From positions 69,386 through 133,385 of the forward strand of contig JAZNSQ010000014.1 in the NCBI GenBank assembly GCA_045591265.1: DNA of 64,000 nt, given 5' to 3'. Positions 61,858 to 63,297 of this stretch are shown here, one piece after another (positions within the stretch are counted from its first letter, which is position 1; every line of letters starts with the position of its first letter). The notes beneath the pieces are model-generated. The model ran no database searches, was not told the origin of the DNA, and was given only the letters and a program-made list of their open reading frames with translations. Source of the DNA: Clostridia bacterium (lineage in GTDB: Bacteria > Bacillota > Clostridia > UMGS1883). A program made the translations under genes and the position numbers.

Positions 61858-61967
61858 ATCAAGTACATTACTTAATTGCTTTATGTAGAAATACTGTACA
61901 AATGCCATAAAATCAAGGTTTCATAGCTTCTTTACAGAAATAGTCTATGATAAAATATTTATAGTCA

Positions 61968-61996
61968 ATTATATCATTTTATTGCTCAAAAATCAA
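61968..61996 (-). promoter_or_regulatory. Outward-facing SigA promoter in the invertible segment
   Basis: Minus strand TTGATT-17bp-TATAAT with extended TG. Confidence 0.7.
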
Positions 61997-62061
61997 GATT
62001 TTGGGTATATTTTTGTGAAATTCGCCGTCAAAATTTTAGTCAGAAAGAGAGGTATAAATAT

Positions 62062-63162
62062 ATGGCACGACACGGAGAAAATATTTATAAGAGAAAAGAT
62101 GGAAGATGGGAAGGCAGATATATAAAAGGATATGATGTAGATGGAAAGGCTCAAAACGGATATGTGTATGGAAAAACCTATAAAGAAGCAAAAGAAAAAT
62201 TGACGATTGCAAAAGCCAATACGAAAATTGAGAAAAAAGTTATATCTTCAGATATGACAGTTTCTATGTGGTTTGACAAATGGCTTGAATCGCAAAAAAG
62301 AATTAAACGCTCGTCTTATACTACCTATTCATCAAATATCAATAAGCACATTAAAAAGCGACTTGGTGCAATAAAGTTAAAAGCATTGTCAGATGAACAT
62401 ATACAGCAGTTTGTTGATGAGTTGTTGGCGGTGCTTGCTCCAAAGTCTGTAAGGTCTGTGTTTTCCATTCTCAGATTAGGACTTGATGAAGCTGCTGAAC
62501 AAAACTTGACCTCCGATTTGTGTAGAAAAATCAAACTACCAAAAGTCAAACGAAAAGAGGTTAAAGTTTTCAATAAGCCGGAGCAAAAGGCTATCGAAGC
62601 CTATATAGAAACATCGAAAAATCCAAATGACATTGGTATTCTTATTTGCTTTTATACAGGTATAAGAATTGGTGAATTATGTGCATTGAGTTGGGAAAAT
62701 ATTGACTTAAAAAGAGGTGTTATCTCTATTGAGCATACTTTGTATCGGGTAAAAAGTAAAGACGGCAAAAAGAAAACTGAATTGAAAATATCCACACCGA
62801 AAAGCGAATCATCTATTAGAGATATACCACTTCCAAAGTTTTTAATCGCCAAGCTGAAAGCGATAGAAATTGGGAGTGGTTTTCTTATTCAAAGGAAAGG
62901 CAAATTTATTGAGCCTAATGTATATTCAAGAAGATACAAAGATATATTGTCGGAGCTTGATATACCATATCGTAAATTTCACTCGACAAGACACACTTTT
63001 GCTACAAGAGCATTGGAGATTGGTATGGATATTAAAACACTTTCAGAAATACTCGGTCATTCATCACCAACCGTTACGCTCAATCTATATTCACATTCTC
63101 TGCCGGAGCATAAACGAAAAGAAATGGATAGACTCGGCAAACTATATAATCCGTCAAATTAG
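62062..63162 (+). CDS. Tyrosine recombinase/integrase
   Basis: Arm-binding N-domain (IYKRKDGRWEGRY); intact TGIRIGE, HSTRH, LGH, Y catalytic set. Confidence 0.93.
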   Translation: MARHGENIYKRKDGRWEGRYIKGYDVDGKAQNGYVYGKTYKEAKEKLTIAKANTKIEKKVISSDMTVSMWFDKWLESQKRIKRSSYTTYSSNINKHIKKRLGAIKLKALSDEHIQQFVDELLAVLAPKSVRSVFSILRLGLDEAAEQNLTSDLCRKIKLPKVKRKEVKVFNKPEQKAIEAYIETSKNPNDIGILICFYTGIRIGELCALSWENIDLKRGVISIEHTLYRVKSKDGKKKTELKISTPKSESSIRDIPLPKFLIAKLKAIEIGSGFLIQRKGKFIEPNVYSRRYKDILSELDIPYRKFHSTRHTFATRALEIGMDIKTLSEILGHSSPTVTLNLYSHSLPEHKRKEMDRLGKLYNPSN

Positions 63163-63297
63163 TCCGTCATTGTAAAATAAATAGTGCTTGATAAGGGCAA
63201 AAATGAGAATTAGTCATTAAGTAATGTACTTAACGACTTTTATTTTTGCCCGAAATCAAGTATTTAATCATATAGACGGATAATCGGAGGATTTATT

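What the first reader, a model, noticed from the sequence alone, without database searches (positions are those of the whole stretch)
61861..63260. Tyrosine recombinase enclosed in its own invertible segment with an outward promoter: candidate phase switch for a SLOG operon
Seen: exact 16-bp inverted repeats at 61861-61876 and 63216-63231. Each reads arm-7bp-arm (TCAAG-TACATTA-CTTAA; TTAAG-TAATGTA-CTTAA) with the 7-bp spacers in opposite orientation. Inside lie an intact integrase and a minus-strand promoter (TTGATT-17-TGnTATAAT) that currently fires into the bidirectional tra terminator. I see no strong promoter before the SLOG gene. CCGTCAAA..AGTC repeats flank the integrase ORF (62025-62041, 63151-63169), and AATCAAG recurs at 61857, 61911, 61991 and 63254. 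Established: tyrosine recombinase cores have 6-8 bp asymmetric overlaps, inverted sites give inversion, and the Hin H-segment has the same recombinase-inside layout. Inference: flipping points the promoter at 63298 onward (ON); the assembled state is OFF.
Basis: partly seen in the sequence, partly recalled or inferred. Interest (0 to 1): 0.8.

Follow-up and report, generated by a model that had tools for sequence, protein, structure and literature searches.

The report
Self-flipping integrase promoter switch on ICE
A 1.37-kb DNA segment on a conjugative element of a gut Clostridia bacterium carries its own integrase and an outward-facing promoter, is found in both orientations in gut metagenomes, and most likely turns the neighbouring cargo genes on and off; the same design recurs in many gut Clostridia and I found no published description of it.

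Summary
Exact 16-bp inverted repeats at 61861-61876 and 63216-63231 enclose an intact tyrosine integrase (62062-63162) and a near-consensus minus-strand promoter (61996..61968).

Assembled contigs from 5 of 10 public gut-metagenome DNA runs carry junctions of the flipped orientation, with breakpoints inside the repeats. In one run both states sit at about equal depth on identical flanks. Homologous elements are assembled in either state.

The two repeats of a pair always share the same 7-bp spacer, and the spacer differs between elements. That is the signature of a crossover region.

The outward promoter is conserved in integrases down to 36-44% identity. These are also flanked by inverted repeats, and one was found flipped in three pig-gut runs.

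The switch sits between the type IV secretion genes and a variable, always co-directional cargo that often starts with a SLOG gene.

- A hairpin plus T-tract forms across the right repeat only in the assembled state, so it looks like a split terminator.
- Conserved TCCGTCA motifs may be arm-type sites for a lambda/Tn1549-like integrase.

The ON/OFF effect on expression is inferred, not measured. I rate this a new variant of a known kind.

The parts
61815..61846 (.). Hairpin terminator at the end of the transfer (T4SS) operon. It has an A-run on one side and a T-run on the other, so it can stop transcription from either direction.
   Evidence: Terminator scan; minus-strand fold shows the hairpin followed by TTTTTGTATTT; an equivalent hairpin lies next to the switch in L001 and L004.
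61854..61880 (.). Left recombination site, TTTAATCAAG-TACATTA-CTTAATTGCT. The exact 16-bp repeat is 61861-61876.
   Evidence: Contigs break or cross over here. The spacer covaries with that of the right site in homologues.
61968..61996 (-). Outward promoter P_out: TTGATT (61996..61991), 17-nt spacer, TGaTATAAT (61976..61968). It fires towards the left repeat in the assembled state and towards SLOG after inversion.
   Evidence: Best site. Conserved in every near homologue. An equivalent minus-strand TTGnnn-17-TGnTATAAT lies at a fixed distance from the repeat in integrases of 36-44% identity.
61948..61956 (+). Candidate integrase promoter: extended -10 TGATAAAAT, face to face with P_out. Together they form the dyad ATGATAAAAT..ATTATATCAT.
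   Evidence: Conserved block in the alignment. Its function is inferred.
62023..62033 (+). TCGCCGTCAAA motif, a candidate arm-type integrase site, 37 nt before the start codon.
   Evidence: Same position and strand in all 11 loci compared.
62062..63162 (+). Tyrosine integrase, 366 aa, with three domains (N-terminal beta-sheet plus helix, SAM-like core-binding domain, catalytic domain).
   Evidence: Pfam; invariant catalytic residues; model with pLDDT 85.8; closest to Tn1549 Int and to full-length lambda Int.
63149..63171 (+). Two TCCGTCA motifs in tandem, 13 nt apart, overlapping the integrase stop codon. Candidate arm-type sites.
   Evidence: Both conserved in position in 9 of the 11 loci compared; L004 and L017 each keep one.
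63195..63251 (+). Composite hairpin GGGCAAAAAT..AGTCATTAAGTA-ATG-TACTTAACGACT followed by TTTTATTTTTGCCC. Half lies inside and half outside the invertible segment, so it forms only in the assembled state. Candidate split terminator for the integrase transcript.
   Evidence: -20.9 kcal/mol in the assembled state against -4.1 after in-silico inversion. Compensatory changes in 6 of 10 pairs and a T-tract in all 10 loci of the alignment. The same asymmetry holds in all 12 loci tested.
63212..63238 (.). Right recombination site, AGTCATTAAG-TAATGTA-CTTAACGACT. The exact 16-bp repeat is 63216-63231.
63252..63283 (.). Conserved outer flank on the cargo side: AAATCAAGTATTTAATCAT plus an inverted TCCGTC motif (GACGG at 63275).
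   Evidence: This flank stays with the cargo side even where the cargo differs and where the segment is flipped, as in L004.
63298..63798 (+). First cargo gene and proposed target: a YpsA/DUF1273 SLOG-family protein of 166 aa.
   Evidence: PF06908 at 4.8e-27. SLOG is the first gene after the switch in L001, L008/9, L014/15, L019, L021 and L078/79.
63829..64000 (+). Second cargo ORF, cut off by the end of the window and co-directional. It has no Pfam match.
   Evidence: By eye it resembles the first cargo gene of L010 (N-terminal sequences; not aligned).

Best explanation
This is a self-contained invertible promoter switch. The integrase encoded at 62062-63162 recombines the two inverted core sites, which share 16 identical base pairs around a 7-bp asymmetric spacer, and so flips the 1,371-bp segment that carries its own gene.

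In the assembled state (A) the strong outward promoter P_out fires leftwards and is stopped by the two-way terminator at the end of the transfer operon. The integrase transcript is stopped by a hairpin plus T-tract that forms only when the 3' end of the integrase gene lies next to the cargo flank. The cargo operon, which starts with SLOG, is therefore OFF.

After inversion (state B) P_out faces the cargo. The site keeps only a weak 7-bp AT stem, so transcription runs about 170 nt into SLOG and the genes beyond it: ON. The integrase transcript now ends at the transfer-operon terminator.

Four conserved TCCGTCA motifs (three inside the segment, one outside on the cargo side) are probably arm-type sites for the integrase N-terminal domain. 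Their uneven placement makes the two directions of flipping architecturally different.

Shown: the repeats, the inversion in natural populations, and the conservation of the sites, promoter, hairpin and motifs. Inferred: that this integrase is the enzyme responsible, that the promoter and terminator are active, and that the cargo is switched ON and OFF.
For: Inversion:
- In run X1 the contig graph breaks exactly at the repeats. One contig of 1,371 nt equals 61861-63231. The three listed 44-nt junction unitigs (two of the assembled state, one flipped) each have depth about 6, and the fourth junction appears as a loose end. The flanks have depth 10-13.
- The flipped state is assembled in X4 (1,088-nt contig joining 61860 to 63231 on opposite strands) and in X6.
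- Flipped junction ends are also present in X2 and X9.
- X7 and X12 show the assembled state only.
- Control: another exact 16-bp inverted repeat in the same element is not inverted in the same runs.

Homologues:
- The integrase is co-directional with the NlpC/P60 gene in L001-3, L008-10, L012-16 and L021, and flipped in L004-7 and L011. The junction flanks are swapped exactly as inversion predicts.
- Spacers are identical within each pair and differ between elements: TACATTA, TACCCTA, TACAATA, CATACTA, TGATAGT.
- Only two copies of the core occur per locus.

Promoter:
- It is the best site in the region and is conserved.
- In about 26 of 34 loci with integrases of 36-44% identity, a minus-strand TTGnnn-17-(TG)nTATAAT ends 27-34 nt from the repeat.
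- That distant family also flips: junctions at the repeats of L031 in three pig-gut runs.

Terminator logic.

Enzyme: intact catalytic residues and a Tn1549/lambda-like fold.

Cargo: always co-directional and variable.
Against: - There are no expression data. The RNA runs found were too sparse or ambiguous.
- Promoter and terminator calls rest on consensus, folding and conservation only. Promoter-like sites are no more frequent here than in shuffled sequence (11 found against 10.3 expected).
- The pairs that covary in the hairpin overlap the dyad-symmetric recombinase site, so the covariation could reflect protein binding rather than RNA structure.
- A conserved plus-strand extended -10 lies face to face with P_out, so the block could be a protein-binding dyad instead of two promoters.
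- Contig data cannot tell active switching within a clone from coexisting sublineages with fixed orientation.
- In L004 the state-specific difference in hairpin stability is small (-12.1 against -10.6).
Confidence: 0.65

Rival explanations
1. The inversion is real but has no effect on the cargo. It would be a selfish or neutral property of an integrase cassette, or a device that only tunes expression of the integrase itself.
For: No expression data exist. The integrase appears to have its own conserved promoter element. Both orientations seem to be tolerated in nature.
Against: The outward promoter sits at a fixed distance from the repeat across integrases as divergent as 36% identity. The cargo side always starts with a gene pointing away from the switch. 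The state-specific hairpin plus T-tract is conserved. None of these would be maintained without a transcriptional output.
Confidence: 0.12
2. The switch has two outputs. In state A, P_out or the integrase transcript interferes with the transfer operon by antisense or collision. The switch would then alternate between a transfer-competent state and a cargo-expressing state.
For: In state A, P_out converges on the 3' end of the NlpC/P60 gene. Some distant relatives have genes pointing away from the switch on both sides (L037, L041, L042, L047).
Against: A strong two-way terminator lies between the switch and the transfer operon, here and in homologues. There are no arm-type motifs on that side.
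Confidence: 0.1
3. The integrase is the element's integration/excision enzyme, and the inversion is a side reaction between an attachment site and a nearby look-alike site.
For: The enzyme is of the lambda/Tn1549 integrase type with an N-terminal arm-binding-like domain. No other integrase was found in the 40 kb of the element held in the window. In L004 the genes beyond the switch could be chromosomal.
Against: There is no third copy of the core anywhere in the 64-kb window, which appears to include the element's left border. Both sites, their matching spacers and the outer cargo flank are conserved together across many elements. The right end of the element lies beyond the window and may carry another recombinase; L001 and L014 have a second, Xer-like integrase.
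Confidence: 0.08
4. There is no active switching. The two orientations belong to different strains that co-occur in the same samples, each fixed after a rare inversion in the past.
For: Only contigs, not reads from single clones, were available. P0022-type elements were seen only in the flipped state and P0004/P0021-type elements only in the assembled state.
Against: In X1 the flanks are single paths at about twice the depth of each junction, with no linked variants. Flipped junctions occur in five unrelated runs for this element and in three for a relative of about 40% identity. About 30 of the 120 homologous integrase clusters listed have a longest contig of only 1.2-1.7 kb, as expected if assemblies break at the repeats.
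Confidence: 0.05

Closest known systems
Salmonella Hin / H-segment (also Gin, Cin, Pin)
   Same: The recombinase gene and an outward promoter both lie inside the invertible segment between short inverted repeats. Flipping connects the promoter to a downstream operon or disconnects it.
   Different: Hin is a serine recombinase that needs a Fis-bound enhancer. Here the enzyme is a tyrosine integrase with a lambda/Tn1549-type fold, 7-bp-spacer core sites and candidate arm-type sites. The switch sits on a conjugative element.
E. coli fimS with FimB/FimE (and ipuS, hyxS); Bacteroides and C. difficile promoter invertons (RecV, Tsr, Mpi)
   Same: Promoter inversion by site-specific recombination gives ON/OFF phase variation. 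Bacteroidales invertible promoters also occur on mobile elements and control cargo (PMC8748976).
   Different: In those systems the invertible segments are short (about 150-700 bp) and the recombinase lies outside or is shared across the genome. FimB/E are about 200 aa and lack an arm-binding domain. The NCBIfam tyrosine-invertase models score 16-18 bits against cut-offs of about 221. Here the 366-aa integrase inverts its own gene.
Tn1549/Tn916 Int and lambda Int
   Same: These are the best sequence and fold matches. The three-domain architecture includes an N-terminal three-stranded sheet plus helix. Repeated short motifs near the core sites resemble arm-type sites.
   Different: Those enzymes integrate and excise elements between directly oriented attachment sites. 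Here the two sites are inverted, lie 1.34 kb apart and flank the gene itself, so the product is inversion. No attachment-like copy was found elsewhere in the window.
Yeast 2-micron plasmid FLP/FRT; Type I R-M hsdS 'epigenetic invertons' with an internal recombinase (PMC7672463)
   Same: A tyrosine recombinase encoded within the DNA that it inverts.
   Different: FLP inversion serves copy-number amplification. hsdS invertons shuffle coding sequence. Here the payload is a promoter (and half a terminator), and no hsdS gene is present.
Integron platform (intI, Pc, attI, cassettes)
   Same: In the flipped state the layout is an integrase transcribed one way, a divergent promoter, a recombination site, then variable co-directional genes.
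   Different: There are no further recombination sites in the cargo. The integron-integrase model scores 45 bits against a cut-off of 265. The segment inverts rather than capturing cassettes.

Membership tests
Tyrosine site-specific recombinases (Phage_integrase, PF00589) | Catalytic R-K-H-R-H/W-Y residues in a C-terminal catalytic domain | tested here: met
   PF00589 at 7.2e-24. R202, K247, H307, R310, H333 and Y343 are invariant in 25 homologues and align to Tn1549 Int.
Invertible promoter switch (inverton) | Segment bounded by inverted repeats and present in both orientations in populations | tested here: met
   Exact 16-bp repeats. Flipped junctions in X1, X2, X4, X6 and X9. Homologues are assembled in both states.
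Invertible promoter switch (inverton) | A promoter inside the segment that reads out across one repeat | tested here: met
   Sequence level only: TTGATT-17-TGaTATAAT, conserved in near and distant relatives at a fixed distance from the repeat.
Invertible promoter switch (inverton) | Expression of the adjacent gene depends on orientation | not testable with these tools
   Only sparse or ambiguous RNA contigs were found.
Hin/Gin/Cin serine invertases | Serine recombinase (resolvase/invertase domain) with a Fis-dependent enhancer | tested here: not met
   The only recombinase in the segment is a tyrosine integrase.
FimB/FimE-type tyrosine invertases | Small (about 200 aa) invertase that matches the curated tyrosine-invertase models | tested here: not met
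   NF007370 and NF007371 score 18.2 and 15.6 bits against cut-offs of 221-222. The protein is 366 aa with an extra N-terminal domain.
Lambda/Tn916/Tn1549-type integrases | Three-domain protein with an N-terminal arm-binding domain (three-stranded sheet plus helix) | tested here: met
   The model has strands at 8-10, 16-24 and 30-37 and a helix at 40-53. Tn1549 Int is the top match, and full-length lambda Int aligns over about 350-370 columns. No Pfam model matched residues 1-64.
Lambda/Tn916/Tn1549-type integrases | Arm-type binding sites distinct from the core sites | tested here: inconclusive
   TCCGTCA motifs are conserved at four fixed positions across the 11 loci, with two lapses at the tandem pair (L004, L017). 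Binding was not tested.
Lambda/Tn916/Tn1549-type integrases | Acts on attachment sites at the ends of the element to integrate and excise it | tested here: not met
   There are only two copies of the core, both flanking the gene. No other copy was found in the 64-kb window at up to 3 mismatches. The right end of the element is outside the window.
Integron | IntI-type integrase plus attC-bounded cassettes downstream | tested here: not met
   TIGR02249 scores 45 bits against a cut-off of 265. No further sites occur in up to 10 kb of cargo.
Xer/dif resolution systems | XerC/D/S/H equivalog and a single dif-like site | tested here: not met
   All Xer models score far below their cut-offs. There are two inverted sites rather than one.

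The most novel reading that the evidence does not exclude
This window holds one member of a large, undescribed class of portable phase-variation cassettes in gut Clostridia. Each is a segment of about 1.4 kb that encodes a lambda/Tn1549-type integrase, an outward promoter, arm-type sites and half of a transcription terminator. The recombination site therefore serves both as crossover point and as terminator stem. Conjugative elements would place this cassette between their transfer backbone and their cargo, so that defence, anti-defence, methylase and surface genes are expressed in only part of the population. The uneven placement of the arm sites would allow each flipping direction to be controlled separately, as with integration and excision in lambda.
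Probability: 0.35. Interest if true: 0.8.

Novelty: new variant of a known kind. Interest (0 to 1): 0.68.

Why it matters
Phase variation by promoter inversion in the gut has been mapped mainly in Bacteroidales. The papers I read on inverton surveys did not report this integrase-containing class. I suspect, but did not verify, that common finders restrict the spacing of the repeats and would miss a 1.37-kb segment.

A switch that carries its own enzyme and rides on conjugative elements would mean three things:
- Cargo such as restriction and methylase genes, metallo-beta-lactamase-fold proteins with anti-Pycsar-like hits, large surface proteins, and in one case a Tet-like ribosomal-protection-type gene further downstream may be expressed in only part of a population.
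- Metagenome assemblies break systematically at these sites. About 30 of the 120 homologous integrase clusters listed have a longest contig of only 1.2-1.7 kb.
- A compact tyrosine-recombinase inversion module with built-in transcriptional insulation is available for study, or for use as a genetic tool in Clostridia.

Tried and rejected
- Exact-protein look-up of the window's integrase found nothing on record.
- The plasmid collection has no near DNA match and only protein matches below 40% identity.
- RNA evidence: two wastewater metatranscriptomes gave four single-read-sized contigs. The runs found with the L019 relative were low-depth and of uncertain type. Neither is informative about transcription.
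- Rfam found no known RNA in 61000-64000.
- Integron-like or multi-site shufflon reading: rejected, because there are only two core sites per locus.
- IS-like multicopy element: rejected. The depth of the segment equals that of its flanks, and its position next to the NlpC/P60 gene with conserved outer flanks is constant.
- Second exact 16-bp inverted repeat at 41358/41823: not inverted in four runs. I used it as a negative control.
- Six full-text literature searches and five papers read found no description of this system. The library does not hold most subscription journals, so a prior report cannot be excluded.
- In the 54%-identity group (L072) the repeats are less clear: 23 nt at 87%. 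I did not resolve them.
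Full report
**1. The observation**

The region 61500-64000 was read directly. AAGTACATTACTTAAT at 61861-61876 has an exact reverse complement at 63216-63231, 1,339 nt away (I4).

Each copy is itself nearly palindromic around a 3-nt centre (CAT on the left, ATG on the right).

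Between the repeats lies one long ORF, 62062-63162 (366 aa). It has Phage_integrase and SAM_3 domains. The catalytic residues R202, K247, H307, R310, H333 and Y343 are invariant in 25 homologues.

The best promoter-like site in the region is on the minus strand: TTGATT-17-TGaTATAAT at 61996..61968. No promoter-like site was reported on the + strand between the right repeat and the SLOG start at 63298.

An exact 16-bp inverted repeat is not by itself remarkable here. The window contains two other exact spaced pairs of 15-16 bp.

**2. The segment inverts in nature**

The region occurs in at least 20 public gut or faecal metagenome runs. Their assembled contigs were laid on the window, with these results.

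- X1: the contig graph breaks exactly at the repeats. The left flank ends at 61876, a 1,371-nt contig equals 61861-63231, and the right flank starts at 63216. The three listed 44-nt junction unitigs, two of the window orientation and one flipped, each have depth about 6. The other flipped junction appears only as a loose end. The flanks and the segment have depth 10-13. The 14-nt loose ends TTCTACATAAAGCA and GATTAAAAAAATAC are the reverse complements of 61877-61890 and 61847-61860, which is what inversion between the repeats predicts.
- X4: a 1,088-nt contig joins 61860 to 63231 on opposite strands.
- X6: a 549-nt contig joins 61862 to 63231 on opposite strands.
- X2 and X9: flipped junction ends are present.
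- X7 and X12: contigs run straight through the repeats in the window orientation.
- Control: the other exact 16-bp inverted repeat (41358/41823) lies on an uninterrupted 8.5-kb contig in X1 and shows no joint in X2, X4 or X9.

**3. Homologues**

The integrase has many relatives. About 30 of the 120 clusters listed have a longest contig of only 1.2-1.7 kb, as expected if assemblers break at flanking repeats.

Loci were fetched through exact-protein look-ups and a scan of one genome per species.

In relatives of 59-89% identity the integrase lies directly after the NlpC/P60 gene, the last gene of a type IV secretion operon that runs VirD4, TrbC, TrbL, VirB4, GGDEF, NlpC/P60. An exception is the 59-67% subgroup L019/L078/L079, where no NlpC/P60 match was found and the left neighbour is a small signal-peptidase-like gene. 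Where the NlpC/P60 gene is present the integrase has one of two orientations:
- co-directional with it (L001-3, L008-10, L012-16, L021);
- flipped (L004-7 and L011).

In the flipped loci the outer flanks are exchanged exactly as inversion predicts.

The two repeats of a pair always match each other, but the spacer differs between elements: TACATTA, TACCCTA, TACAATA, CATACTA, TGATAGT. The arms are conserved. This is the pattern expected for a crossover region. Each locus has only two copies of the core.

**4. A superfamily feature**

Integrases of only 36-44% identity come from Oscillospiraceae, Lachnospiraceae, Ruminococcus and other Clostridia. They too are flanked by inverted repeats, about 250 nt upstream and about 100 nt downstream, with consensus TTTCGCAGAG-7 nt-CTCTGCGAAA and variable spacers. 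By my count, 46 of the 64 species-representative loci show such repeats.

In about 26 of 34 of these distant loci, the best promoter between the left repeat and the integrase start is on the minus strand. It reads TTGnnn-17-(TG)nTATAAT and ends 27-34 nt from the repeat. In the near family the same promoter ends about 90 nt from the repeat.

One distant member, L031, shows opposite-strand joints at its repeats in three pig-gut runs.

**5. Context**

The window runs from chromosomal genes (dnaX at 336-2027) into a conjugative element: RepA_N/DUF6017, ParA, ParB, a 2,852-aa SNF2/methylase protein, a relaxase, an SLH adhesin, the type IV secretion genes, then the switch.

Downstream of the switch the genes always point away from it and vary between elements:
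- SLOG plus an unannotated small ORF (window);
- SLOG, a Xer-like recombinase and a radical-SAM/ABC/S8 cluster (L001);
- SLOG, an EcoRI-type methylase and a GmrSD/HNH nuclease (L008);
- a metallo-beta-lactamase-fold lipoprotein and Ig-like surface proteins (L012, L016, L081-90);
- an ECF sigma/anti-sigma pair and a 3,227-aa S8 protein (L072);
- a 97-aa protein, VTC and DUF4956 (L004).

**6. How it most likely works**

In the window's state, P_out fires leftwards. After about 100 nt it crosses the left repeat and meets the two-way hairpin terminator at 61815-61846.

The integrase transcript meets a long hairpin at 63195-63251 whose two halves lie inside and outside the segment. Its inner stem is followed by TTTTATTTTT. 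The local fold is -20.9 kcal/mol in this state and -4.1 after in-silico inversion.

The stem keeps pairing through compensatory changes in 6 of 10 pairs, and the T-tract is present in all 10 loci of that alignment. In all 12 loci tested, the combination of integrase 3' end, site and cargo flank is the most stable of the four possible junctions.

After inversion, P_out lies about 170 nt upstream of the SLOG start codon with only a weak stem in between. I therefore read the assembled state as OFF and the flipped state as ON. This is an inference.

A conserved plus-strand extended -10 (TGATAAAAT, 61948-61956) faces P_out and probably drives the integrase in either state.

TCCGTCA motifs recur at four fixed positions across the loci compared: 37 nt before the start codon, twice in tandem at the stop codon (L004 and L017 each keep only one of this pair), and once inverted about 45 nt outside the right repeat on the cargo flank.

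The predicted structure (pLDDT 85.8) has an N-terminal three-stranded sheet plus helix. It matches Tn1549 Int best and also full-length lambda Int. The motifs are therefore plausible arm-type sites. Their uneven placement would make the two directions of flipping different reactions. This was not tested.

**7. Comparison with known systems and novelty**

- The layout is that of the Hin H-segment, but with a tyrosine integrase.
- The logic is that of fimS and the Bacteroides invertons, but the enzyme is a full-size, arm-domain integrase that inverts its own gene on a conjugative element.
- It fails the curated models for FimB/E invertases, Xer recombinases and integron integrases.
- Literature searches found invertible promoters on Bacteroidales mobile elements (PMC8748976), general inverton surveys (PMC11892184, PMC11602134, PMC9881135, PMC5903667) and epigenetic invertons with internal recombinases (PMC7672463). 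None describes this Clostridia system.

I class it as a new variant of a known kind. A description outside the searched library may exist.

**8. Limits**

All population evidence comes from assembled contigs, not raw reads or clones. No transcription data were usable. The identity of the enzyme, the activity of the promoter and terminator, and the role of the motifs are inferred.

Noticed in passing
window 41358-41373 and 41823-41838: A second exact 16-bp inverted repeat (ATTTGGGAGTACAAAT), 449 nt apart, flanks ORF 41360-41773 just upstream of the relaxase gene. No inversion was seen in X1, X2, X4 or X9. It may relate to the origin of transfer.
   Followed up: yes
window 23217-23231 and 23728-23742; window 6054-6077 and 7387-7410: Two more spaced inverted repeats. 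One is 15 nt, exact, and flanks ORF 23295-23756 at the presumed left border of the conjugative element. The other is 24 nt at 92% and lies in two adjacent chromosomal ORFs.
   Followed up: no
window 57868-59435: A PAPS-reductase-like gene (355 aa) and a small stand-alone GGDEF protein (165 aa) sit inside the type IV secretion operon. The GGDEF gene is conserved in related elements. The PAPS-reductase-like gene is absent from L001 and L004.
   Followed up: partly
L008 7335-10080; L081-L090 downstream of the switch: The cargo behind related switches includes SLOG, an EcoRI-type adenine methylase and a GmrSD/HNH nuclease (L008). In L081-L090 it includes a metallo-beta-lactamase-fold protein with anti-Pycsar Apyc1 hits, DUF3006 and a Big_2 protein, then an IS. 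In L082 the IS is followed by a 639-aa EF-G-like gene that looks like a Tet ribosomal-protection gene.
   Followed up: partly
window 61948-61976: Two extended -10 elements face each other (TGATAAAAT on + and TGATATAAT on -), forming a conserved dyad. Their predicted transcription starts are only a few nucleotides apart, so polymerase binding would be mutually exclusive. Alternatively the block is a protein-binding site.
   Followed up: partly
window 61857, 61911, 61991, 63254: AATCAAG recurs four times and resembles the outer arm of the left core site. The copy at 63254 lies in the conserved outer cargo flank. Its role is unknown; it could be a spare half-site or an accessory site.
   Followed up: partly
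L004-L007, L011 (integrase P0022): This element was seen only in the flipped state in all five contigs, from several samples. Its state-specific hairpin is barely more stable than the alternative (-12.1 against -10.6). The switch may be biased or locked.
   Followed up: partly
L037, L041, L042, L047 (distant family): Genes point away from the switch on both sides, which suggests a toggle between two targets rather than ON/OFF. ORF calls in these higher-GC loci are rough.
   Followed up: no
window 62074-62127, 62099/62628, 62204/63010: Contigs from other integrase paralogues in the same metagenomes align only to the roughly 50-nt stretch that encodes ENIYKRKDGRWEGRY. Two contigs skip 528 nt and 805 nt inside the integrase gene (X5, X7). 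These may be deletion variants or chimeric joins between paralogues.
   Followed up: no
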